Positions 1-11,476 of a DNA stretch of 64,000 bases are shown piece after piece. A program made the translations under genes and the position numbers. How positions within the stretch are numbered: position 1 is the stretch's first letter; every line of letters begins with the position of its first letter. This stretch comes from Picochlorum sp. SENEW3 (taxonomy: Eukaryota): the NCBI GenBank assembly GCA_034226945.1, contig CP120464.1, positions 186,001 through 250,000 of the forward strand. The letters run 5' to 3'. Under the pieces are notes generated by a model, which worked only from the letters and a program-made list of their open reading frames with translations, was not told the DNA's origin and ran no database searches.

Positions 1-228
1 AACGTTCGGTGAGGTCTTGAATACTCACATCCTGCACAAAACACCCATCTAAGCCCATATAAACACATATATGCTACTTAGTACCACATTTAATGCGCAC
101 ATGCTGGCGTAGAGAAAGCTGCTGCTCGCCAAGGCGATCCAACAACCGATCCACCCGGTGACGTTCTTCTTCCTTCACAGAATTCATATATGGCGTCGAT
201 TGTCGTGTAAATATCTATAAAATTACAA

Positions 229-2322
229 TTACACAACATAATTCATCTTCATCTGGGATTCTAAATGAATCCTGGCGTATTCCACTGCTTCTCCCATGGA
301 GACCTGGACCCCTCCAGGACCAAGTTCAGTAATCAAATCTCCTCTCATAAGCATAATCAGCATGGTTTTTGATGGGTTGGCTAGTATCAGATGGATGTCA
401 TCCGACTTAAGTTCTCTCACTAGATCTTGGAACATGTGGAGGCCAGCGACGTCAATGTCTGGCGATGGGGACAGGTCAATAATGACATAGCGAACCTTGT
501 CTCCAACTATTTCATGGGCTGCCTTGCTTCTTCGTAGCTTGTCGAATAAAAAGTCCTTGATTCCTTCAATATTTGCGAAATATATTGGTGCATCGATACG
601 GAAAAGGATCATTCCTGGTGGTTCTTCTGCGTCTGGGTACATATTCACGTTTCTATAAATGCTTGTGTTTGGCAGTTTTCCAAGAGAGGTGATTCTTGGG
701 AATGCCGTCTTGTAGATGACGAGGACAAGAGAGACGCCGACGCCAACTAAAATTCCTACTTCAACACCCAAGAATAATGTGAAGAGGAATGTAAAAACCC
801 AGACGAGCCAGTCGAGTTTTGACACCTGCCACAGCTCCAAAAAGTCCTCATACTGCAACAGACCCATGACACCGACAATAATGATGGCGCCTTGCACATT
901 CTTACTCATATTGGTGAAGACTGGGGTCAACGCGACCAGGACAATTAAGACAAGGATACCAGTGATGAAGTTGGACAGAGGCGTCTTGGCTCCTACTGAA
1001 TCATTGACGGCAGATCTTGAAAAGGACCCAGTGGTGGTGTAGCAATTGAATGCTGCTCCAAAGAGATTGGCGATACCCAAGCCTCGTAATTCTTGCGTCG
1101 CATCCAGCCTATCTTTATTTTTCTGGGCTAATGCTTTCGCGATAGACATACTCTCAGTTATATCGATGAGGCAGATGATAATGGAGAGCAGAATTTGTCG
1201 CCCCACATCAAACAAGGGAAACCACCATCCAACAGTCACAGCTGGAAGGCCTCTCGGAATCTCTCCAATGTTCGCAATGACAGGAGCCCCATCTGGTGTA
1301 TACCATTTAAAAATATTCATCAGCGCGATTGAGACGATGCATACCGTCAATGGTCCGAGTGCTCGCAGGAATCCTAATGACTTGACCCTGCGGGACAAGA
1401 CTCTAAAGATGAGCAGAATCAGCACATACGACATGCCCATACTAAATTCTTGCCAACTAAATTGATCAAGTCCATGGAATATTTCTTTTAGATTTTCTTG
1501 AAACGTGTCTGCGCGTGGAATACTCAGTCCCAGCATGTACTTGACCTGGGATAGAGCAATAAGAATGGCAGCACCGCTCATAAATCCAGAAATTGTTGCA
1601 TGCGACAAAAAGTACGTCAACCACCCGAGAGCTAGCAACCCAATCGCCGTGTATAATACACCAGCTAAAAATGCTACTTGAATCGCAGCACGCGAGAAAT
1701 CATCGCATGTGGCACCCCCATCAAATGTGTCTGTTCCATTGGATGTCCCAGCCGCGGTGGCATTGAAATCCTCCGTGCCCGTGTCGGTATAGCAGGGACT
1801 GGAAATCCCAAACAACGATTCCAGTCCATTTCCGAGAAGAATTGACGTCACCGCAACAGGACCGACAGACAGTTGTTTCGAATTCCCAAGCAATGAGTAA
1901 ATGAGGCAGGGGACAAATGCTCCATACAACCCATAGACCTGTGGCAACCCTGCCAAATTCGCATAACTCATTCCCTGAGGAATCACCATGGCACCAACAG
2001 ACAACCCAGAAAGTATATCCCACAACAGCCATGTCCTCCATTTGTATGTCTTCAACCAACGAAAGCATGGAATGAAAAATGCCAGCCAATCATACCAAGA
2101 ATATCCTTTTACTTCCTCCTTGTATGCATCCCGCTGACCCTTCACCAGTGCAGTCGCCTGATCAAAAAGAGAATGGTCTTCCATCATGTGAACTGGGACC
2201 TTGCTCTTGAACGTATGGATGGATCGCTGCGTCGCCACTGACGCGTGTGCTGCGAAAGACGAACTGACACCGACACCATCCCCTTCCGGCGGATCATCCT
2301 CAGACCCACTACGATCCTTCAT
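229..2322 (-). CDS. SulP/SLC26 sulfate transporter with C-terminal STAS domain
   Basis: 697-aa ORF with SulP signatures (IPQGMSYANLAGLPQVYGLY, GSFSRSAVN), many TM segments and a STAS domain (RIDAPIYFAN...IIDLSPSPDIDVAG). Confidence 0.95.
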   Translation of the reverse strand: MKDRSGSEDDPPEGDGVGVSSSFAAHASVATQRSIHTFKSKVPVHMMEDHSLFDQATALVKGQRDAYKEEVKGYSWYDWLAFFIPCFRWLKTYKWRTWLLWDILSGLSVGAMVIPQGMSYANLAGLPQVYGLYGAFVPCLIYSLLGNSKQLSVGPVAVTSILLGNGLESLFGISSPCYTDTGTEDFNATAAGTSNGTDTFDGGATCDDFSRAAIQVAFLAGVLYTAIGLLALGWLTYFLSHATISGFMSGAAILIALSQVKYMLGLSIPRADTFQENLKEIFHGLDQFSWQEFSMGMSYVLILLIFRVLSRRVKSLGFLRALGPLTVCIVSIALMNIFKWYTPDGAPVIANIGEIPRGLPAVTVGWWFPLFDVGRQILLSIIICLIDITESMSIAKALAQKNKDRLDATQELRGLGIANLFGAAFNCYTTTGSFSRSAVNDSVGAKTPLSNFITGILVLIVLVALTPVFTNMSKNVQGAIIIVGVMGLLQYEDFLELWQVSKLDWLVWVFTFLFTLFLGVEVGILVGVGVSLVLVIYKTAFPRITSLGKLPNTSIYRNVNMYPDAEEPPGMILFRIDAPIYFANIEGIKDFLFDKLRRSKAAHEIVGDKVRYVIIDLSPSPDIDVAGLHMFQDLVRELKSDDIHLILANPSKTMLIMLMRGDLITELGPGGVQVSMGEAVEYARIHLESQMKMNYVV

Positions 2323-2560
2323 ATTTTTATATCTATATCACTTCTATATACTAAAATATATCACAAGAGCGACTTGTAAGCTGGCCAGAGGAATGCGCTG
2401 GTGCATCGATTGACCAGGCTGCGTCGTAGTAGAAAATGTCTATACCGAATAGTCGCTACAAAAGACCTCAATTCCAAAGTACAACTATCTGTATCTCAAA
2501 ATACTATTACAATGACGATACTTCATGGTATCCGCGGCATTTTCATGGTACTTTTCTGTA

Positions 2561-3151
2561 TCAGTGATGGTATGGCTCCTTCTTCAGGATTGTCCATGCT
2601 CTGTACAGCTGTTCCATCAAGACAATGTGGGCTACTGAATGGTTCAAGACACACCGACTCAGACGAATTGTATCCTGTGATGATTGGCGTACTTCTTGGG
2701 AATGCCCAAAGGGGCCGCCGATGAGGAACACAAGGTTCTTCACGCCATTTGAACTGGCATCTGCCAAAAGCCTGGCCATGTCCATACTCGTGACGTCCCT
2801 TCCACGCTCATCCAAGCAAACCACGTGGTCTGTGGTCGGTGTTATATGCTTGAGTACACGCGAGCCCTCATTCTTCACCGCCACCGCAGTATCCTTGGCA
2901 TTGAGAGGATTATTCTTCACGTTGATGGACTCCACAGCAGTATACCTGGAGAGCTTGGCCGACCATTCTGATGCACACGCCTGTCCAGCAGACTTTGATT
3001 TAGAAGACACGGTAATCACTTTAATTGGTACTGGTCGGACCGCAGAATGCTCAAACGAGGCAGTGCAGTGCTGCATGTTGTGAGGAGACCTTCTTCTTCT
3101 TCTTACACACAGGTGGGAATACAATGTAATCTGCTGTCTGAGCCATATCAT
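2561..3151 (-). CDS. rlmH: RlmH-like SPOUT rRNA methyltransferase, probably organelle-targeted
   Basis: Motifs VCLDERG, FLIGGPFG, LNHSVAHIVLMEQLYRAWTIL and C-terminal PYHH. The first in-frame ATG (MIWLRQQ) is at 3151. Confidence 0.9.
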   Translation of the reverse strand: MIWLRQQITLYSHLCVRRRRRSPHNMQHCTASFEHSAVRPVPIKVITVSSKSKSAGQACASEWSAKLSRYTAVESINVKNNPLNAKDTAVAVKNEGSRVLKHITPTTDHVVCLDERGRDVTSMDMARLLADASSNGVKNLVFLIGGPFGHSQEVRQSSQDTIRLSRCVLNHSVAHIVLMEQLYRAWTILKKEPYHH

Positions 3152-3311
3152 GTCTGTAATAATGTAATTCCTGGTGTGGATGATGGTGAACAGAGAGAGC
3201 CCCTCTCCTTGCTCTTCTAGTCGAAGAGTAATAATAATACTTGACACTCACTTTATTTTGTATTAATACGACAGACACATGTTTTGTAATTTTCGCGCAT
3301 TGGTACTGTAC

Positions 3312-3354
3312 CATCTGGGAAATCTGAAAATAAGAAATGGACGTCCGATGTAAT
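3312..3354 (+). repeat. Left terminal inverted repeat (43 bp)
   Basis: CATCTGGGAAATCTGAAAATAAGAAATGGACGTCCGATGTAAT is the exact reverse complement of 9308-9350. Confidence 0.97.
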
Positions 3355-3459
3355 ACACAATTCTTCTGTCGACACACTAATTTAAGATATAAGAATTTGA
3401 CGTTGATGTCCAAATGTACTACTATTTTTATACACGGATACTGGCGTTCCTGTGCACTG

Positions 3460-3514
3460 TTTGGACGTTATTTGGACGCTATATAGACGCTATTTGGACG
3501 CTATATGGACGCCT
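3460..3514 (+). repeat. Subterminal tandem array, 5 x 11 bp (consensus TWTGGACGCTA)
   Basis: Units tttggacgtta / tttggacgcta / tatagacgcta / tttggacgcta / tatggacgcct. The core TGGACG also occurs in the TIR. Confidence 0.9.
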
Positions 3515-4024
3515 CGATACACTACTGTACATTTACACTGAATATATAATATCTGTACTCATACATACATCTGGTATCCACAGAGAGGTGTGATGACGCA
3601 CACCAGAGTAGCATTATGTGGCCACATTATGTGGAAACCTGTAGACTCTCACTGATAATAAGAAGGAGACCTACAAACACGACACATTCTCATTGTCACT
3701 CACGACCTATTACCACTGGTGTGGTCGAGGAATGGGAACCTAAGATGTTCTTCTGGTGGCAATCTGATATACCTGCTCCGCAGATTCCTCAGGCTTTTGA
3801 GCATGGCCTTGTAATCTGCATCATTGATAACTTCCCCCACAAGTATGGCCTCAAACTACACAAACACACACGTGTATCATTAATGATGCTCGAAAATTAT
3901 GTGTTGAAATATCATGCAAACATCCCACAGCAAGGCACTCTGCTGATGAAACAATTGTGCTTTTGCACCATTGCCTCAGGCATAAGCTGTCAAAGTTCTT
4001 CTTGACAGCTCTCCTTCAAATCAG

Positions 4025-5333
4025 TCAGAGGGCACTCCCGAAGAAGAGCCACGTCGTGGTGAAACCCTCTTGTCGATTTGAAACGCAGAGACCGCCTGTG
4101 TGTTGACATGACATGGTCACCAATCTCAATATACATCGTACCTTGGCCATGCAGTATGCCAGGATTGGCAGAGGCATTGTTCTGATATGATAATCGGCTT
4201 TCTCTTCTTGAAAATCGAGAGATTGAAAATCACTGAATCCCAGGCCGCATGCCTCCAGATAGATACCTTGCAGATCTACCAGATATTTTCTGAAAAGTCT
4301 GTTCCCAAATGGATCGTCATTGCGGAATCTGTACTGGGGCTTATCCTTATCCAGACCTGCACGCAAACAACGTGATCATGAGTTTGAGTATATATTACCA
4401 TTGCTACGCAGAGTACCTTTGAGAAGCTCCTCCCTCGTATCTTCAGTGACTGCCAAACCCTTTCCGGCGAAACAGAAATACCATCCTTGTAGTCATCATG
4501 ACTGCCATACACCTTTAAAAATGCCTCTTCACATCTTTTGCTCAGAAAAGGTCGTATTCTTTGGCGTAACAAAGTTTGAATTTCCTGTTGCGTGGTCTTC
4601 TCCTCAAGAAGCTTAGCAATGCTTTCCTTCATGCGAGTTGAAGGGTAAATGCCATCTACATTATCTCCCAGTACCACATGCATGATTGCCTGCTTGATCG
4701 TCTTATTATCTGCTTCATTCTGCAGTCCAGTTGAACGGCCATTACGAGAATACTGTTGAAGAGAAACATTCAATGGCATACCTTTCTGAGCGGAACTTTG
4801 CTCTTTCCTTTTGCTTTGCCATTAACTACGACTTCCTTGATTTCACTGAGTATCCCTGATATATTTAAAAGAATATTCTTAATTTCATTCGTACCATTGA
4901 GTGCCCCAGGTACTCTTGTTTCATGGTTTGCAAAGTCTTCATGCAAGATATCACTGTATCCATCCTCTCTTGGAGGTTGGCTGGTTGGATCAGATAACTC
5001 GACATTCTCATCAGGATCTGATTCGTCCGAATCGTTGTCTCTGCGTTTAGATTGTTGCGAATCACTTGATGGTTTTCCTTTTTGGTCCACCTTGTAGTAC
5101 GGTTGAACAAGGAGGCGGTCATTCGAAGGCAACACTGTCTCATTCGTTGCATTTATATTGAGGATTTCATCAAAATAATTCACCCTCTTTATATGAGCAT
5201 CCTGTTGATTGCTCACTGCAGGTTTCTTGTTCTTGCTCCCGGGTGGGCGACCACGCCCGCGCTTTTTCGTTTCTTGTTGAGAAACTTGCGGAACCGCAGT
5301 CCCTTGGTCGTTTTTTGATGAACTGGTTATCAT
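4025..5333 (-). CDS. Transposon accessory gene with AT-hook (multi-exon; both ends uncertain, may extend to ~3650)
   Basis: AT-hook KKRGRGRPPGSKNKK and an acidic linker. An in-phase intron at 4781-4720 joins ...KVPLRK to NEADNK.... Further GT donors lie at 4416 and 4141. An apparent frameshift falls near 4490. Confidence 0.6.
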
Positions 5334-5716
5334 TATAGATGTGTTCGGTTCAGAACACGAAGGAACACCTAGGTACCGAGTTGCGATCAAAGAACAGGAC
5401 AGTTGAGAAGAAAACTGCTGCTTTGCCCACAGTGTTGACTTTTCGACACTGATTTGCGATTCTTCGCAAGTATTAAAAAGTATTGATGAAATTTATAACG
5501 ATAAATTTCAATGAAACACAGAATACTGCTCCGCGATGTTTTGAACGGTTCCGACATGGGCACCAAGAAGAACATTCGGTCCAGGCACCTCTCCAGCGGA
5601 CGGTGACACAATGAGAACATTGGACCTTCATGCAGGAGCGTTTGGGCGATAGAAATGGCTCAGGTGTAGCCCTGTGTGAGCGAGATGAAATTTGCATCAA
5701 TATATAATTTGAAATC

Positions 5717-8700
5717 ATGGATTCTGAACGGATTCAATGCCAGTACTGTGGGAAGTGGTTTAAGAGTCTTGGCACACAACACTACAAAGGTTGTGCTGGC
5801 ATATCGAATGAGGAACTGCGAGATCGAATAGTCCAAGCCAGCAAACAAGCAACAATTATGAGGAAAAGAATGTACAATCGGGATCGGGATGCAAGAAGAC
5901 TGTACGGGGGAAAAAAGCTCCGTGTGGGTCCAGTTCATGCACAGGGGGGAACATGAGGACAATGATAATCATTGCTACCATGAAGATCCCTGTGATCCTG
6001 ATGAGGTCAATGACATTTATGATTGTCAGAAAGAATCTGCTGAATGCGATGATTCTCTGGCCTGCAAGACTCGCCTGAACATGTTTGAGAGAGCACTGAT
6101 TGAGGCTGTACCTCGTCTGCCCAAAAAGGTGGGTGATAGTTTAATTAAAGCTTCCTGGGACATATTGGATGGAAATTTATCTTTTGGAAGAGGTATTGAA
6201 GACTTTAATGACTTTTTACGCACCGAATCTGGACGAGAAGACATGGTCCAGACATTGGGACTCACTGTCTGTGGGAATGATTGTGTCATATTTCACATCG
6301 CGGACGCCAAAGCATTGCTTCAGGAATGTCTTTTAAAAGTTAAAGATATCAAGACGCGCCCAGAAAGTGCAACGATTCCAGGCAGTGGAGCAAGAGTCTA
6401 TGGTGAAGTTGCATGGGGAGACTGGATGTTAGACACTTGGGTGAGTTCGATTCCTATGATATCACATGATTTTGCCGTCTCTAACGAAGTTTATTATTAC
6501 ATCCAGAATAAGCTTCAGGAAATACACCCTGGTTGCGAGCTTCTCCCCATAGCTTTCTATAGCGATAAAACCCTGTCAAGGAAGGGCCCAAAGACTCTGT
6601 ATCCAGTGAATCTATTCTTTCCATCAGCAGCTATTGAGGACAGGTTCACACAAAATGCATACAGATGTATTGGTCATATTCCTGAGCCACAGCCACAGGG
6701 GCATTTGCTGCCTAAAAAGGGCATGGTCATGAAGAATTTGAAGAAATGGCTGATGTACACGTCGTTACATCTAATACTCGAACCATTCAAAAATCTCAGT
6801 CACACTGGCGTCCGATTAGTCAATACCAAAGGAGAAACGAAAACATACTTTCCAATACCAGTATTTTATGCTGCAGACCTCTTGGAATATCAGACCATTT
6901 TCGGCATCAGTGCTGGTCCAAACGACATGGATTCATATCCTGATCCAAGCTATCTTGTTCGTAGAAGGCGCTTGGGCAAGTCTATCGATACCATGCCCAC
7001 CAGAAGGTCTGAGATCCTCTTTCAAAAACGTTTGGATGCATCTAGGAGATTTAAAGACCCAGAAAAGGCGAAAGAGATGCTGAAAGAGTTCTCCTACGAC
7101 CCTCTTCTTTTGTATACACCCGAGGCTGATACATTTGGAAAGCAAGGCAAATCTGTCGTGACCTACTACCTGGTATGTTGTCTAGATCACTTCTGAAGAA
7201 AAAGAAAAAATCAAAGCATTGACAAAATAAAAGAGTACCATGCAGGGACAAGGAGACGCATCCAAGGGCAGAATTCCTTCCTTGCCCCTTGCTGGTTTTC
7301 ATCTCACAAATTGCTTTGATCTTGTGGTACCTGACACGCTCCATACATTGCATTCTGGAGTAGGATCATATATTTGCAATTTCAATCTCAAATCAGCATC
7401 ACTACTGAAGACATGCATGGAGATGTCTGGGAAGCACCAGGCAAACCTTCTCAGTAAGATGAGTGCCAGCATTGACGAGTCATCCCCACTCAGGGAATAT
7501 AGCCTGCCCTCTGTCAAATTCGAGCTACCCACCGATAAAAATATCACCGTATCAAGCGAGCAAGCAGCTAATTTGTGTCGTTTGGCACTTGTTGCCTGCC
7601 TTGTGGATGATGCTCTTCGTCCGGTAGTGGATGTGCTACAAGGTACTGTGTGTGTTACTCTCTGTATTCTCATAAGCACCAAACTATTATTACTATTCCT
7701 AATGTGCAGTGTATTTAGAACTCGAAGCACGTATACTGTGTAAGCATCACACTGAGGACACATTGGCAAAAATGCATGCCACCATTGAGAAATTGAAGCA
7801 AGCGCTGGCAAAAGCATTCGAGCAAGTTTCCTCCACGCAGCACCTCAATACTTTGAAAACGTTTGCCCTCTATAAGTTCCATGATGAAGTCAAACGATCT
7901 GCATGTGCCAGTGTATGTGATACACACCATCACGAGAGAACACACAAAGACCTCAAGTCTGCAAGCGCGTGGACCAATAACAGAAATGGCCAATTCATGC
8001 AGCAAACCCTAGCAAAGGCAACTCAAATGGCCAGGGTAGCGGAACTAATCCAGTGTCACGAAGATGATAAACGGACGTACGAAACATCGGTGGGTTTATT
8101 GCTGTCCTGGTTGTTGCCTGTTTCTACACATTTTTCCAAGGTCAATCACCATTTTGGAATGCAGAGGACTCGAGCTCTCAGCACAAACAGGATTCAGATG
8201 GTTCCGAATTCGCGCATACTACATGGTACTATAGGTGACCTGCAAAATCTCGCCCCGTATCGAAAACTTCAAGCATGGTTACCTGATATGGAGAGACTCA
8301 TTTACTGCATCAACATCCTGTACCAGACCAAAATATCTTCCTCTAGGAACCTTCAAATCCCATCTGATACTCAGGTATGTGCCTTGCAATTTACTGCAAC
8401 ATAATGATGAGAGTGTCGAATTAAATACAACAAATGAAATTTGCAGATTGAGATATTTCAGAAAGCACACATACCATTCATACAGTATCCTGGCTGTGAA
8501 ACAAGCACCAGAGTGTTGCTTGGGAGAATACACACATTTCCTGAGACTCTACGCCTTGCCAAACAGCACCAAGACGATCCACAAAATTTCACTCGGAGCA
8601 TGCTCGAATCCAAAATACATAGGCTCAGTGATACGATGGGATCCTTTGTGACTGTGAAAGGCGATGGACACCAGCCATGGTATGCTGAGATCCTCTGCTT

Positions 8701-8977
8701 TGTGAGAATCACGCCTCCATCTACCAGTGGGAGACAGGATGCAGAGGTTGCATTCGTCAGGTGGTTTACAGAGGTCAAGAAAGCTACTTTACATCCTGTC
8801 CTTGGCCTGCCATATCTCAAAGTGGAGAAGACTGTGAGACAGAGTTCTGAAGGTAACAACCAAACAGAAGTCTTCACCGATCTATGCAGAGCTGTAGATA
8901 TACTCGAGCCAATTTACATGCAAAAAGACCCCAGCAACAACAGGAAATGGTTCATACACAACAGGTATGTCCGCTGA
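5717..8977 (+). CDS. Plavaka-type DDE transposase (spliced, ~968 aa if the 5' frameshift is corrected)
   Basis: Zn finger CQYC..H..C, then RVYGEVAWGDW, LLPIAFYSDKT, LYPVNL, FPIPVFYAADLLE, PDTLHTLHSGV, DTHHHERTHK and C-terminal AEILCFVRI..AFVRWF. Phase-compatible GT-AG introns: 6441-6506, 7173-7245, 7643-7709, 8090-8164, 8375-8446. A +1 frameshift lies at ~5905-5950. Confidence 0.88.
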
Positions 8978-9307
8978 ACTTGGGGCCAACTTGCTCCATA
9001 CCAGCGCAGTGGCTCGCCCCAGGGGTGCAAGTCACCTTGTACAATATGTAGAAAAGTAATCTGTAAAATAATATTTATAGTCCAAATATACTCCACTGTC
9101 CAAATCGGCTACATTTGGTGTACCTGGATTCGTGGACGCCTATCCCTACATGGACATTGCCGTTTGTGTCACCTGTCCGACGAATGGAAAAAACATGCCT
9201 CTATCTCGCTTTGGCCCCTTCGGACGGTGGATGGACAGATGTCATACAGGGTACTACGATAGACGTCCATGTCCACGTACACGAAATGTGTGTCCAAAGG
9301 ACACTGG

Positions 9308-9350
9308 ATTACATCGGACGTCCATTTCTTATTTTCAGATTTCCCAGATG
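9308..9350 (-). repeat. Right terminal inverted repeat (43 bp)
   Basis: ATTACATCGGACGTCCATTTCTTATTTTCAGATTTCCCAGATG, followed by the TAC target-site duplication. Confidence 0.97.
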
Positions 9351-9602
9351 TACCCTATGTTATTATTATTGAATATAAAATAATGTGTTTGATGTTCTCA
9401 TCGGGGCGTATTGTTTTTAGTGTATGCATGGGGTATTTCATGGTTCTGCCATGCATCATCACGTGCGAAAGGGGGTTGCTCCTTGAGGCTTGCGCAAGTT
9501 TCATGAAGGTTATACGCTTGGAACCCGACCAATTGAGGCATACGTTTACATCAAATCTTTTACCATAGGGAAAAGGATATTTGAGACAGAGGAGAGACAG
9601 TC

Positions 9603-10196
9603 TCATGCAAAGTCAAGGACGCCGAGATGTGGTGTCATTTTCCAGACAGGAGGCACACCAGCCGCTGGAGAGGTGTTTGATCTGAATGTCTTTACTAGTC
9701 CCGAGGTCTCCTTATACTCTATCTTGAATGATTTTGCTGTATCCGATATCCATGCGTTCGTAGGCAGCACGTCTACCTCGTCATCAGAGGAAGAGGAGCA
9801 GGGATCACTCTCTTCCTCTTCAGGCTCCACATCCAATTGCAATGCCTCCCTCACCCGAGCCACGTGACGACATTTATACGCTTTATCTGAATCGCATTGC
9901 AGACCTCTATCTCCTTGCATCCTGACGAATCAGCCGTCCACGTGGTAGCCAACTGTGGAGGAGGTATTTCTCTTGATGGTCACCACCTCATCCTCGTTTG
10001 AAAACACCATACTGCGCAGGTGCTCCGAGTTCACACGGGTATACAACGTGTGAACACATTCTTTGGGCTCCAAAAGATTGCGAAACACGGCACAAGAGCA
10101 CCGCAAATGGCCCGTGGGATCAATTCCAGATTCCACCTCAACGAGCAAGTTGTGGTGGACCCTCATACTGCCTCCAGGACCTGGAGTCCATGACAC
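9603..10196 (-). pseudogene. Decayed SWIM-type Zn-finger gene, probable transposase remnant
   Basis: Motif LRCSCAVFRNLLEPKECVH (CxC-x9-CxH). An in-frame TGA at 9932-9930 separates it from the same-frame ORF 9603-9920, which has C..KCRH and an acidic tract. Confidence 0.55.
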
Positions 10197-10399
10197 CGAG
10201 TACTGCAGTACCCGATGAAGGTTTGTGCAGAGTATCCAGTTGGGGTGAAAGAAAAAAGACCAATTAGTATCCCTTCTACGTTCGCGCAGGGCACCGTGAG
10301 CGTGTTTGTCAGCAGGCTGCAGAGTGAGAACAGAGATACCGGCGGTGTCGTATGGTAGTCTTCTACAACCAGGTTGCTGTCACGCGTCGATTGGTATAA

Positions 10400-11476
10400 A
10401 TGAGCAGCGAAGACGCTAAAAGGTTCGACCTTGGGTCTGAAGACGGCCAGCAGATGGAACTGTCCGAGGTGTTGGGGTGCAGGACGCTGCCCCGCGAGGT
10501 GGCCAGGAGGCTGGAAGCCACGGCAGGTGGGCAGAACGGGCGAGTGTCCGTGGATACCCTGGTAGAAATAATTGTGACAAGTCACAACTCTGGAGGCAAT
10601 CGTGCAGTGCTCCGGAGAAGCGTCTTTGGTTTCACTGTTGCGACGGTCTGCCTGTCAGCAGTGGTGTGTGGCCTGGTGTTCGGGTCCGTGCACCTGACCT
10701 CTCAAATGAAGGTGAACAATAGCGTGCTATATGAACGCAGCAACCCTGATGTGCCGATGCATGCTGGTGCCACGAAAGTGGTATACGATGCAACCTCTCT
10801 GCAAAGTTTGCAAACTGCCAGTGGCAGGCGCTCTACACCACAAACCCGGCGTAAATTGCTTTCATCCATTCAAGATCCATACACAGAAAGCGATAAAGAT
10901 ACTCTAGCATTTAGGAGTGACCTGATGGGGACCAAATTAAGATCTCTACGAACATTGCTGTTTACGGATAAGGATGGCACCTTACACATGTATCAGACTG
11001 CGTCAGTTTCTCTTCTTCCTGATGGCAATTTTGACGTGGTTGCCATATCTGGAGAAAAATTCATGATAACTGCAAATGGTGTTTTCATGGTGAACAGTGT
11101 GTCAAGTGATGCAACATCTGGGGGACGCAGGTTGCTGCAGGACGAGGGCTCTGGTGAAAGTATATTCACCGACTTTTTAGTGGTCGCGGATGCCTTGCTG
11201 TCGACTCTTGATAGCAGTAACACCGTCGATGCAAGTTCAAAACAGCCCAAGAAATTGCATGGCGACGTTTGTCATTGTGATGATGGTTGTTACTCTGGAT
11301 TCTGTGGATATTCAGCTGTTGGCACTGCCGCAAATGCAGTGAAAGAGATGACACAATTCCCTTCCCTAGCATACTACTGTGACGATCCGCCGGCAGAGTT
11401 TGCTGGTCCTGAGAAGAAATGCAAAGGCATGATTTATTGTGGTGATTGCTACAGTGGTTTGTATAGGGAATTCTAG
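10400..11476 (+). CDS. Hypothetical single-pass membrane protein with RRKLL/RRLL motifs and Cys-rich C-terminus
   Basis: Intact 358-aa ORF with one hydrophobic helix (VFGFTVATVCLSAVVCGLVFGSV), TRRKLLS and GGRRLLQ motifs, and a CHCDDGCYSGFC...CxxxxYCGDC tail. Confidence 0.75.
   Translation: MSSEDAKRFDLGSEDGQQMELSEVLGCRTLPREVARRLEATAGGQNGRVSVDTLVEIIVTSHNSGGNRAVLRRSVFGFTVATVCLSAVVCGLVFGSVHLTSQMKVNNSVLYERSNPDVPMHAGATKVVYDATSLQSLQTASGRRSTPQTRRKLLSSIQDPYTESDKDTLAFRSDLMGTKLRSLRTLLFTDKDGTLHMYQTASVSLLPDGNFDVVAISGEKFMITANGVFMVNSVSSDATSGGRRLLQDEGSGESIFTDFLVVADALLSTLDSSNTVDASSKQPKKLHGDVCHCDDGCYSGFCGYSAVGTAANAVKEMTQFPSLAYYCDDPPAEFAGPEKKCKGMIYCGDCYSGLYREF

What the first reader, a model, noticed from the sequence alone, without database searches (positions are those of the whole stretch)
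3650..5716. Divergently transcribed AT-hook accessory gene inside the transposon
Seen in sequence: inside the TIRs, head-to-head with the transposase, is a spliced minus-strand gene. It has an AT-hook (KKRGRGRPPGSKNKK), an acidic linker and a helical C-terminal part (...REELLKGLDKDKPQYRFRNDDPFGNRLFRKYL...LPILAYCMAK). A further exon-like frame at ~3855-3700 reads FEAILVGEVINDADYKAMLKSLRNL. Established knowledge: plant CACTA elements encode a DNA-binding TnpA on the same strand as the transposase. Inference: this is a TnpA analogue of an unrecognised family, driven from a shared bidirectional promoter.
Basis: partly seen in the sequence, partly recalled or inferred. Interest (0 to 1): 0.7.

Follow-up and report, generated by a model that had tools for sequence, protein, structure and literature searches.

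The report
Transposon's second gene: AT-hook protein
A recently mobile Plavaka-type DNA transposon of a tiny green alga carries, back-to-back with its transposase, a real spliced gene for an AT-hook protein of an undescribed, very narrow family, although the copy in this window is broken by a one-base frameshift.

Summary
A 6,039-bp element (46-nt TIRs at 3312-3357 and 9305-9350, TAC target duplication) encodes a Plavaka transposase on the + strand and a four-exon gene on the - strand. Its exons are 5333-4782, 4719-4417, 4356-4142 and 3855-3700.

Contigs of two probable RNA runs from a relative carry all three introns with GT..AG ends. The joined frame equals a 408-aa "hypothetical protein" annotated in Picochlorum sp. 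SENEW3.

Exon 2 of the window copy lacks one base that all four laid runs have.

The protein has one canonical AT-hook, an acidic tract and a helical C-terminal half with a strongly conserved ~75-aa core. It has no Pfam or PDB relative. Of 1.84 billion representative proteins, only two are real relatives: an AT-hook-less paralogue in Picochlorum and a metagenomic form. Both share the intron positions.

I read it as the element's own DNA-binding cofactor. That function, and the shared promoter, are inferred and not shown. [quoted passage not shown] I call this a new variant of a known kind, of moderate interest.

The parts
3309..3311 (.). Left copy of the 3-bp target-site duplication (TAC).
   Evidence: The empty-site joint 3306->9349 skips 6042 nt, which is the element plus 3, in 4 of 4 runs.
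3312..3357 (.). Left terminal inverted repeat, with terminus 5'-CATCT.
   Evidence: (pair I1, 46 nt, 98% complementary).
3457..3511 (+). Subterminal 11-bp repeats of the form TTTGGACGyTAT, with A/T tracts between the GGACG cores.
   Evidence: family D1, spacing 11. TGGACG occurs 8 times in the two ~310-bp ends, 1 time in the 5.4-kb middle, and 0.48 times per kb over the whole window.
3700..3855 (-). ORF2 exon 4 (51 codons plus stop): FEAILVGEV...SGNRS*.
   Evidence: Joint 4142|3855 in X15 and X16. 100% identical to P0007 residues 358-408. Conserved in the type 2 (P0030, P0025) and type 3 (P0022) relatives.
3856..4141 (-). ORF2 intron 3 (286 nt, GT..AG).
   Evidence: An unspliced contig is also present there (record 11).
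4142..4356 (-). ORF2 exon 3, which holds the conserved core (P.YR..DPFGN..FR..L..LQ...IRT.P..ILA).
   Evidence: (25 invariant columns in alignment A2).
4357..4416 (-). ORF2 intron 2 (60 nt, GT..AG, phase 1).
   Evidence: printed 4354->4415, 'cut +2'. The intron sits at the same position in type 2, as shown by the read-through in P0024.
4417..4719 (-). ORF2 exon 2. In this window it is one base short in the run at 4461-4466 (GG on the - strand where other copies have GGG), which gives a frameshift.
   Evidence: 'Put in behind 4463: C' in 4 of 4 runs. Frame change at 4465-4468. The intact form is P0007, and the 386-aa annotations P0005 and P0006 skip 22 aa here.
4720..4781 (-). ORF2 intron 1 (62 nt, GT..AG, phase 0).
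4782..5333 (-). ORF2 exon 1 coding part (184 codons from ATG 5333): AT-hook, acidic S/D/E tract and a predicted helix.
   Evidence: 100% identical to P0007 residues 1-184.
5223..5267 (-). AT-hook KKRGRGRPPGSKNKK (residues 23-37).
   Evidence: Pfam AT_hook scores 9.0 bits, under the 17.4 cut-off. The multi-AT-hook protein P0020 matches residues 14-41 at E 2.2e-5.
5334..5716 (.). Head-to-head intergenic region. It holds the ORF2 5' leader (an RNA contig reaches 5585) and the putative divergent promoter.
   Evidence: record 12 to 5585, record 18 at 5564-5861. The promoter itself is inferred.
5717..8977 (+). Plavaka transposase gene. Inferred exons are 5717-7172, 7246-7642, 7710-8374 and 8447-8977 (~1,015 aa). 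The N-terminal C-x2-C...H...C finger is in a different frame from the core in this copy.
   Evidence: The exon borders come from splice consensus and reading frames only. They are not seen in the RNA contigs.
5944..5949 (+). G6 run. A G5 version would join the ATG-5717 frame to the transposase core frame.
   Evidence: 'left out 1' at 5944 in X14 (806.7 of 806.7 depth), and not in X15 (0 of 41.4). Sequence.
8394..8474 (-). 81-nt intron with - strand GT..AG ends in RNA contigs that are antisense to the transposase.
   Evidence: joint 8393->8475 in X15 and X16 only. Sequence.
9305..9350 (.). Right terminal inverted repeat (...AGATG-3').
9351..9353 (.). Right copy of the TAC target-site duplication.

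Best explanation
SHOWN: The region is ORF2 of an autonomous-type PlavakaB (CACTA/EnSpm-related) cut-and-paste transposon. It is a four-exon gene transcribed away from the transposase. Its product is a 408-aa protein with one AT-hook near the N-terminus, an acidic serine-rich tract, and a helical C-terminal half whose ~75-aa core is conserved in all known relatives. The element has moved recently: this site is empty in other strains and the element sits at other sites there. The window copy of ORF2 has a 1-base deletion in exon 2. An intact copy exists elsewhere in the same annotated genome.

INFERRED: The protein is the element's own trans-acting DNA-binding cofactor. The AT-hook, which also serves as a nuclear-localisation patch, docks in the minor groove of the A/T tracts that alternate with the GGACG cores of the subterminal repeats. 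The C-terminal domain gives specificity and/or contacts the transposase or a second ORF2 molecule. This would help the two ends to be recognised and paired, or tune element expression. That role resembles TnpA in En/Spm and the Myb-like ORF in PIF/Harbinger. Because it acts in trans, frameshifted copies such as this one can still be mobilised.
For: - Location: the gene lies inside the TIRs and TSD, head-to-head with a Plavaka transposase.
- Splicing: three - strand GT..AG joints appear in 2 of 4 runs (the two guessed to be RNA) and not in the DNA run of the same organism label. The joined frame is identical to the independently annotated 408-aa P0007.
- It travels with the element: near-identical proteins occur in several records of Picochlorum sp. 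SENEW3 (P0005, P0006, P0007), in P. renovo (P0009, 96% identical) and in sp. BPE23 (P0008).
- Mobility: the empty-site joint is seen in 4 of 4 runs, and loose ends at 3311/3312 and 9351 run into other flanks.
- Constraint: between SENEW3 and P. renovo, 12 of 184 residues differ in exon 1 but only 3 of 222 in the C-terminal part (Fisher P = 0.007).
- Conserved core: three lineages at ~33% identity keep 25 invariant columns. They also keep the positions of introns 2 and 3 (read-through or spliced pairs P0024, P0019/P0022 and P0018/P0030).
- AT-hook: a canonical RGRP core with basic flanks. P0020 matches it at E 2.2e-5.
- Possible binding sites: GGACG repeats interleaved with A/T tracts are enriched at both ends.
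Against: - No DNA binding, no interaction and no effect on transposition has been tested.
- There is no detectable similarity to TnpA, Myb/SANT, PAG or TET/JBP proteins, or to any Pfam or PDB entry.
- A single AT-hook binds weakly and with little specificity (established knowledge).
- The family was found only in Picochlorum and a few unnamed metagenome or Logan proteins. It was not found in the many other organisms with Plavaka elements: 5 hits among 1,835,955,588 representatives and 10 hits among 3,087 candidates. It is therefore not a general Plavaka component.
- The frameshifted form is annotated in more than one sequence variant (P0005, P0006), and this frameshifted copy is an insertion polymorphism. 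An intact ORF2 in cis is therefore not needed.
- The paralogue (type 2) has no RGRP and looks like one locus per haplotype. That fits a host gene as well.
- The structure models are too poor to show a fold (pLDDT 36.1 and 41.7).
- The AT-hook lies in the longest invariant run of exon 1, but a run that long arises by chance in 25% of permutations.
Confidence: 0.45

Rival explanations
1. Passenger gene. An old host gene, whose surviving host copy is the AT-hook-less 'type 2' paralogue, was captured by this Plavaka lineage. It is carried along and expressed but has no role in transposition.
For: - The family is restricted to Picochlorum-like sequences.
- Type 2 is found as one protein per assembly or haplotype in SENEW3, BPE23 and P. 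renovo. It is more diverged between species (90% identity) than the element-borne copy (96-98%), as an orthologous host gene would be.
- Plavaka elements are known to pick up accessory genes: TET/JBP in fungi and PAG1-3 in red algae (passages).
- Frameshifted copies persist.
Against: - Identity to type 2 is only ~32-33%, while the full architecture and the intron positions are kept. Any capture was therefore ancient, and the gene has since been kept open within the element.
- The C-terminal half is under more constraint than the N-terminal half.
- An Auxenochlorella Plavaka also has an antisense second gene.
- The genomic context of type 2 could not be seen, so it may itself lie in a transposon.
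Confidence: 0.2
2. Regulator rather than transposition cofactor. The protein binds element DNA or chromatin through the AT-hook. It either represses or activates the divergent promoter, or counteracts host silencing, like VANC of VANDAL elements or the repressor side of TnpA.
For: - The gene sits at a head-to-head promoter region.
- The combination of an AT-hook and an acidic tract recalls chromatin architectural factors such as HMGA (recalled, not tested).
- Abundant spliced antisense RNA over the transposase in the same runs suggests that the element is under RNA-level control.
- Other Plavaka accessory genes are chromatin or DNA-modification enzymes (passages).
Against: - No enzymatic or known regulatory domain is detected.
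- Nothing distinguishes this reading from the cofactor model in the data at hand.
Confidence: 0.2
3. No function. The frame is a decaying relic, and its transcription and splicing are incidental. For the copy in this window this is close to the literal truth.
For: - The window copy is frameshifted.
- A further 1-base deletion variant is seen at 4235 in part of X14 (798 of 2489 depth).
- Structure confidence is low.
Against: - Intact 406- and 408-aa forms exist in two species.
- The core is conserved across three lineages at ~33% identity, with the intron positions retained.
- N- and C-terminal constraint is unequal.
- Splicing is precise.
Confidence: 0.1

Closest known systems
Plavaka-1_UTEX250 of Auxenochlorella (EnSpm-Plavaka). 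Seen as a curated repeat table in the supplement of PMC12633428 (passages only) and as a main-text passage.
   Same: It is a trebouxiophyte green alga. The transposase is of the Plavaka type, the TSD is 3 bp, it has TIRs, it is autonomous, and its insertions are polymorphic. [quoted passage not shown]
   Different: It is 8,841 bp with 15-bp TIRs, against 6,039 bp with 46-nt TIRs here. Whether the two second genes are homologous is unknown, because the sequence was not at hand. The phmmer search found no relative outside Picochlorum-like sequences.
TnpA of maize En/Spm (CACTA). Properties are recalled from established knowledge.
   Same: It is the second product of a CACTA-superfamily element and is not the DDE transposase. 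It is proposed to bind short subterminal repeats and help bring the ends together.
   Different: There is no sequence similarity. TnpA comes from the same transcription unit as the transposase by alternative splicing, whereas this gene has its own transcript on the opposite strand. TnpA has no AT-hook.
PlavakaB transposons of fungi (PMC12730594, passages).
   Same: [quoted passage not shown] Here they are 5'-CATCT..AGATG-3' with a 3-bp TSD. Some carry one accessory gene.
   Different: The fungal accessory gene is a TET/JBP dioxygenase. No such domain is present here.
PAG1-3 accessory genes of red-algal Plavaka (bioRxiv 10.1101/2025.02.11.637652, passages).
   Same: They are accessory genes carried inside Plavaka elements. 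PAG3 is proposed to bind repeats of its own element.
   Different: PAG2 combines a DNA methylase with a SET domain, and PAG3 combines a ParB-like domain with a 2OG oxygenase. None of these domains is detected here. PAG1 has no known domain and could not be compared, because preprint supplements are closed.
Myb-like ORF of PIF/Harbinger, and AT-hook proteins of the HMGA/AHL type (recalled).
   Same: PIF/Harbinger is a two-gene DNA transposon with a separate DNA-binding cofactor. HMGA/AHL proteins have an RGRP core followed by GSKNK and an acidic region.
   Different: There is no Myb Pfam match. There is only one hook, and the C-terminal domain is unrelated to PPC/DUF296 or HMGA.

Membership tests
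Plavaka transposon (the element as a whole) | The transposase matches Pfam PF18759 above the gathering score. | tested here: met
   E 2.9e-11, 43.6 bits against a 26.3 cut-off, on ORF 5862-7196. Only profile positions 94-238 of 325 are matched.
Plavaka transposon (the element as a whole) | PlavakaB termini 5'-CATCA..TGATG-3' and a 2-3 bp TSD (PMC12730594, passage). | tested here: met
   Termini are CATCT..AGATG, so 4 of 5 letters match. The TSD is TAC. The empty site skips the element plus 3 nt.
En/Spm TnpA | Sequence similarity to plant TnpA proteins or their Pfam family. | tested here: not met
   at E <= 10 only AT_hook and Macoilin are listed for P0007. Searches give the same for the exons and for the relatives.
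En/Spm TnpA | Made from the transposase transcription unit, on the same strand, by alternative splicing. | tested here: not met
   The gene is on the opposite strand with its own introns.
En/Spm TnpA | Binds the subterminal repeat motifs of its own element. | not testable with these tools
   Repeats exist at both ends, but binding needs EMSA or DAP-seq.
AT-hook (PF02178) | R-G-R-P core flanked by basic residues. | tested here: met
   The motif is KKRGRGRPPGSKNKK. It is 1 of 2 RGRP in the six-frame translation of the window and the only one with basic flanks. P0020 matches it at E 2.2e-5.
AT-hook (PF02178) | Pfam gathering score. | tested here: inconclusive
   The score is 9.0 bits against a 17.4 cut-off, E = 2. 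The model is 13 residues long and a single hook rarely passes.
DUF6532 (PF20149, Basidiomycota) | Match to the Pfam profile. | tested here: not met
   The family is not listed at E <= 10 for P0007, P0009, P0018, P0019 or P0022. Only language-model neighbours point to it: score 0.94 with 146-154 shared features, and 5 and 4 of the ten best hits with a family agreeing. A profile-profile test could not be run.
Myb/SANT-like cofactor (PIF/Harbinger type) | Three-helix Myb-like domain detectable by profile or fold. | tested here: inconclusive
   There is no Pfam match. In the Atlas structure rows, Myb-like clusters align at TM 0.24-0.27 by query and 0.46-0.50 by the short row, and the model has pLDDT 0.48. 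My own models are too poor to decide.
Plavaka accessory genes PAG2/PAG3 and TET/JBP | DNA methylase, SET, ParB-like or 2OG-oxygenase domains. | tested here: not met
   None is listed in Pfam at E <= 10.
Second antisense gene of trebouxiophyte Plavaka (Plavaka-1_UTEX250) | Homology of the second gene's product. | not testable with these tools
   Only the table line was seen and no sequence was available. The architecture (antisense second gene, 3-bp TSD) agrees.

The most novel reading that the evidence does not exclude
The conserved C-terminal core of this protein marks a previously unrecognised family of transposition cofactors that is ancestral to Plavaka elements. The 'second antisense gene' of the Auxenochlorella Plavaka would belong to it. 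So would, very distantly, the basidiomycete DUF6532 proteins that expand together with Plavaka and KDZ transposases. Plavaka would then be an ancestrally two-gene transposon like PIF/Harbinger. The single-copy, AT-hook-less paralogue in Picochlorum would be a domesticated derivative with a host function.
Probability: 0.12. Interest if true: 0.7.

Novelty: new variant of a known kind. Interest (0 to 1): 0.45.

Why it matters
Second genes of cut-and-paste transposons decide where and when the transposase works. Examples are TnpA, the Harbinger Myb protein, MURB and VANC. They are also a repeated source of host regulators.

Plavaka is a poorly characterised branch of the CACTA group, and no cofactor is known for it. 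Its known passengers are DNA- or chromatin-modifying enzymes.

Here a compact element that has demonstrably moved recently carries a small, spliced, expressed gene with a clear DNA-binding motif and an unknown conserved domain. It sits in a 13-Mb-class streamlined alga in which DNA transposons are reported to make up only 0.35% of the nuclear genome (PMC11092101, passage). The genome also holds a paralogue that has lost the motif.

This gives a small, tractable system for two questions. The first is whether Plavaka needs a cofactor. The second is how such genes pass between transposon and host. Picochlorum strains are used in biotechnology, so an active endogenous transposon and its parts also have practical interest as a source of insertional variation.

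Tried and rejected
- Whole-genome search: no genome is held for this window.
- RNA runs: no RNA holder is listed for the stretch. The two runs I used as RNA are only guessed to be RNA.
- Earlier findings of this scan: nothing by place, sequence or words.
- Other copies in the window: none. The element is single-copy here.
- Context of the type 2 and type 3 relatives, and co-occurrence with transposases elsewhere:
  - Two metagenome scans (A2, then P0022) found no confirmed locus among 362 and 372 pattern matches.
  - A viral-contig scan with A2 found none among 99 pattern matches.
  - The transposase ORF found none in viral contigs (28 pattern matches) or in prokaryote genome contigs (368 pattern matches).
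  - The word-index search with the 444-aa transposase ORF, restricted to proteins of 778-2220 aa, scored none of 3214 candidates. The locus-tag adjacency test I had planned therefore could not be done.
- Structure:
  - The single-sequence AF2 model had pLDDT 36.1.
  - The model from the 9-sequence alignment had pLDDT 41.7, with 20 residues at 70 or above.
  - Foldseek against PDB gave 0 matches with E <= 0.001, best 0.46.
  - VIA-align gave a best Z of 5.6 (cyclin C, rmsd 3.4, 73 aligned). That is in a low-confidence part and under the tool's noise level of about 8.
  - I draw no fold from these.
- Homodimer prediction of residues 140-408: no answer, score 0.01 against a mark of 0.32, and the alignment was not used. 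This is neither for nor against binding.
- PDB sequence searches gave only chance-level rows.
- DUF6532 and DUF6698 neighbours in the ESM Atlas are a repeated but weak lead. They are not backed by Pfam. The only paper found lists DUF6532 beside Plavaka and KDZ among the additional domains of two Ganoderma species (passage).
- Invariance of the AT-hook among type 1 variants is not significant (P about 0.25).
- N-terminal homology of type 1 and type 2: MAFFT lines up KRGRGRPPGSKNK with SNWGRANGSQNG, and both have a following I.RVNY. BLASTP finds no significant N-terminal match. I treat a 'decayed AT-hook' in type 2 as a suggestion only.
The RNA contig runs unbroken from 4415 to 4719 and carries one extra base instead.
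- A coding - strand gene under the antisense intron at 8394-8474 is rejected. The frame after the joint runs into a stop in under 40 codons (ORF list, own reading).
- Literature: I found no paper describing this element or gene in Picochlorum. Searches were 'Plavaka' (20 papers, 16 listed), 'Picochlorum'+'transposon' (30 papers, 20 listed), 'Picochlorum'+'EnSpm' (4 papers, 2 listed) and 'AT-hook'/'CACTA'/'TnpA' (41 papers, 12 listed, none of those listed holding 'AT-hook').
Full report
1. THE ELEMENT

The finding sits inside a 6,039-bp DNA transposon at 3312-9350.
- The 46-nt terminal inverted repeats at 3312-3357 and 9305-9350 are 98% complementary. Their 39-nt core occurs exactly twice in the 64-kb window, against 0 expected.
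- The flanks read TAC|CATCTGGG...CCCAGATG|TAC, a 3-bp target duplication.
- The + strand ORF 5862-7196 matches Pfam Plavaka (PF18759; E 2.9e-11; 43.6 bits against a cut-off of 26.3).
- Termini of the form CATCT..AGATG with a 3-bp TSD fit the 'PlavakaB' lineage. That lineage is described as 5'-CATCA..TGATG-3' with 2-3 bp TSDs (PMC12730594, passages only).
- Both ends carry GGACG-type subterminal repeats interleaved with short A/T tracts. There are four 11-bp-spaced units at 3457-3511. TGGACG occurs 8 times in the two ~310-bp ends, once in the 5.4-kb middle, and 0.48 times per kb window-wide.
- The element is single-copy in this window.
- It lies between a SPOUT methyltransferase gene (2561-3247, -) next to a SulP sulfate transporter gene (229-2337, -) and unassigned ORFs to the right.

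2. THE ELEMENT HAS MOVED RECENTLY

I laid contigs of four public runs on 2300-10400.
- All 4 of 4 contain a contig joining 3306 to 9349. It skips 6,042 nt, which is exactly the element plus one TSD copy. That is an empty site.
- Loose ends at 3311/3312 and 9351 continue into sequences unlike this window's flanks in X15, X16 and X17. The same element therefore sits elsewhere in those organisms.
- One DNA run (X14) also holds an internal-deletion form (5985->7968).

3. THE MINUS-STRAND GENE IS REAL AND SPLICED

Two of the four runs (X15, X16) are guessed by the tool to be RNA. That guess is not on record.
- They contain contigs with three joints whose skipped parts begin CT and end AC on the + strand, which is GT..AG on the - strand. 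The joints are 4782|4719 (62 nt), 4417|4356 (60 nt; printed as 4415|4354 'cut +2') and 4142|3855 (286 nt).
- None of these joints is in X14, a DNA run with the same organism label, or in X17.
- With ATG at 5333 the exons are 5333-4782, 4719-4417, 4356-4142 and 3855-3700.
- The spliced contig reaches 5585. The leader is therefore at least 252 nt long, and its known end is 131 bp from the transposase ATG at 5717.
- Contigs cannot show transcript starts, so the head-to-head arrangement is shown but the 'shared bidirectional promoter' is an inference.

4. INDEPENDENT ANNOTATION AND THE FRAMESHIFT

- Exon 3 as a query found one protein, P0005, a 386-aa 'hypothetical protein' of Picochlorum sp. SENEW3 (1 hit of 10 candidates).
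- Its 90% cluster has 11 members:
  - a 408-aa form (P0007, SENEW3);
  - two 386-aa forms (P0005, P0006);
  - a 406-aa P. renovo protein (P0009, 96% identical);
  - a fragment from sp. BPE23 (P0008);
  - six Logan ORFs of 186-187 aa, which are exon 1 read into intron 1.
- P0007 is exactly the product predicted from the RNA joints.
- tblastn places P0007 on the window at 100% identity for exons 1 and 4. There is a change of frame (-2 to -1) at 4465-4468.
- At that place all 4 of 4 laid runs have one base more than the window ('put in behind 4463: C'). On the - strand this is GGG where the window has GG.
- The window copy therefore carries a 1-base deletion in exon 2. With the true splice sites it would end after about 312 codons, before the conserved core.
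- The 386-aa annotations get round this by a 22-residue skip after ...DDYKD. No RNA evidence for that skip was seen.
The RNA contig is continuous from 4415 to 4719, so there is no intron there.
- I could not test whether the deletion is real or a homopolymer error of an assembly built partly from nanopore reads (PMC11092101, passages).
- The shift is annotated in two sequence variants (H19/G123 and Q19/E123). That argues for a real, propagated allele.

5. THE PROTEIN

- Residues 23-37 are KKRGRGRPPGSKNKK, a canonical AT-hook core with basic flanks.
  - Pfam's 13-residue model scores it under threshold (9.0 against 17.4 bits).
  - A multi-AT-hook protein (P0020) matches residues 14-41 at E 2.2e-5.
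  - RGRP occurs only twice in the six-frame translation of the window.
- An S/D/E-rich tract follows, around residues 95-135.
- The rest is predicted helical.
- There is no Pfam family at E <= 10 for P0007, P0009 or the relatives. There is no meaningful PDB sequence match.
- Both AF2 models are of low confidence (pLDDT 36.1 and 41.7). The fold searches gave nothing above noise: Foldseek best E 0.46, VIA best Z 5.6.

6. RELATIVES

- phmmer of P0007 against 1,835,955,588 representatives gave 5 proteins at E <= 0.001:
  - two are fragments of the same protein;
  - one (P0020) shares only the AT-hook;
  - two are true relatives.
- The first true relative is P0018, which I call 'type 2'. It is a 366-aa SENEW3 protein, 32% identical over residues 192-357 (E 4e-26 pairwise).
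- The second is P0019, 'type 3', a JGI metagenome protein, with the longer P0022.
- A profile search added only further Picochlorum or unnamed members (10 hits of 3,087 candidates). Among their cluster mates is P0030, a complete 393-aa type 2 protein of BPE23.
- The three types share 25 invariant columns, concentrated in exon 3: P.Y...DP.G..FR..L..LQ...L...G...DF..L...I.T.P...A.
- They also share a C-terminal tail encoded by the last exon.
- Gene-model pairs that read through or splice the same places show that introns 2 and 3 are at identical positions in all three types. The pairs are P0024 against P0018, P0019 against P0022, and P0018 against P0030.
- Type 2 has no RGRP.
- Type 2 appears as one protein per assembly or haplotype and is 90% identical between SENEW3 and BPE23.
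- The genomic context of types 2 and 3 could not be obtained. This is the main gap in the analysis.

7. CONSTRAINT

- Between SENEW3 and P. renovo type 1 proteins, 12 of 184 exon-1 residues differ, against 3 of 222 in the rest (Fisher P = 0.007).
- The AT-hook lies in the longest invariant run of exon 1 (residues 20-51). Such a run arises by chance in 25% of permutations.

8. MECHANISM

Shown: an expressed, spliced, element-borne gene with a DNA-binding motif and a conserved unknown domain, in a recently mobile element.

Inferred (confidence about 0.45): it is a trans-acting DNA-binding cofactor.
- Its AT-hook would read the A/T tracts of the subterminal GGACG arrays.
- Its C-terminal domain would provide specificity or protein contacts.
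- This is functionally like TnpA or the Harbinger Myb protein.

Rivals:
- an anciently captured passenger, with type 2 as the host copy (0.2);
- a promoter or chromatin regulator, or an anti-silencing factor (0.2);
- a relic with no function (0.1). This last reading is nearly true for this particular copy.

9. COMPARISON WITH WHAT IS KNOWN

- It is not a TnpA family member: two defining features were tested and not met.
- It carries none of the domains of the known Plavaka passengers. Those are TET/JBP in fungi and PAG2 and PAG3 in red algae.
- PAG1 could not be compared, because preprint supplements are closed.
- ESM-Atlas neighbours of both P0007 and P0018 are basidiomycete DUF6532 clusters (0.94; 146-154 shared features). 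By the tool's own criteria, and by Pfam, this is only a lead.
- I found no paper describing this element or gene in Picochlorum.

10. VERDICT

- The gene family is undescribed, but its kind (a second gene of a CACTA-group transposon) and even its architecture in a sister alga are known.
- Novelty: new variant of a known kind.
- Interest: 0.45.

Noticed in passing
window 5944-5949 (with 5717-5956 and 5862-7196): The transposase start (ATG 5717) encodes a C-x2-C...H...C finger. It is in a different frame from the Plavaka core ORF. A G6 run sits at the junction. One DNA run has G5, which would fuse the two frames, while X15 has G6 like the window. This copy therefore seems to be frameshifted in both of its genes, unless translation starts at the in-frame ATG at 5889.
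   Followed up: partly
window 8394-8474, contigs 6482-9337: The contigs of the two probable RNA runs over the 3' two-thirds of the transposase carry an 81-nt skip with minus-strand GT..AG ends (GTATGT...TTGCAG). They carry none of the + strand introns that the transposase frames require. This is a spliced antisense, apparently non-coding RNA. Its contig depth is higher than that of ORF2.
   Followed up: partly
window 3306/9349 (empty site); 3311-3312 and 9351 (other flanks): This insertion is absent in contigs of all four laid runs, and the element has different flanks there. It is an insertion polymorphism, which is direct evidence of recent transposition.
   Followed up: yes
window 5985-7968: One DNA run holds a contig that joins 5985 to 7968, with 9 other letters between. 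This is an internal-deletion derivative that removes most of the transposase core but keeps ORF2.
   Followed up: no
window 4235: Part of the depth in one DNA run (798 of 2489) lacks one base in ORF2 exon 3. Frameshifted ORF2 copies therefore also exist in that organism.
   Followed up: no
window 5485-5506 and 5684-5705: A 22-nt direct repeat (77% identity) lies in the head-to-head region. One copy is in the ORF2 leader and the other is 12-33 nt upstream of the transposase ATG. It may be chance or a shared control element.
   Followed up: no
window 8372-8391 and 8962-8981: The motif CAGGTATGTsC occurs at the inferred donor of the last transposase intron and again just before the stop of the last ORF. 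This hints at a further 3' intron or exon of the transposase.
   Followed up: no
window 229-3247: The flanking host genes are a SulP sulfate permease with a STAS domain (E 9.5e-99) and a SPOUT methyltransferase (E 2.9e-41). Reading the ORF, the element sits about 235 bp upstream of the first ATG of the SPOUT gene, so it may affect that gene's promoter.
   Followed up: partly
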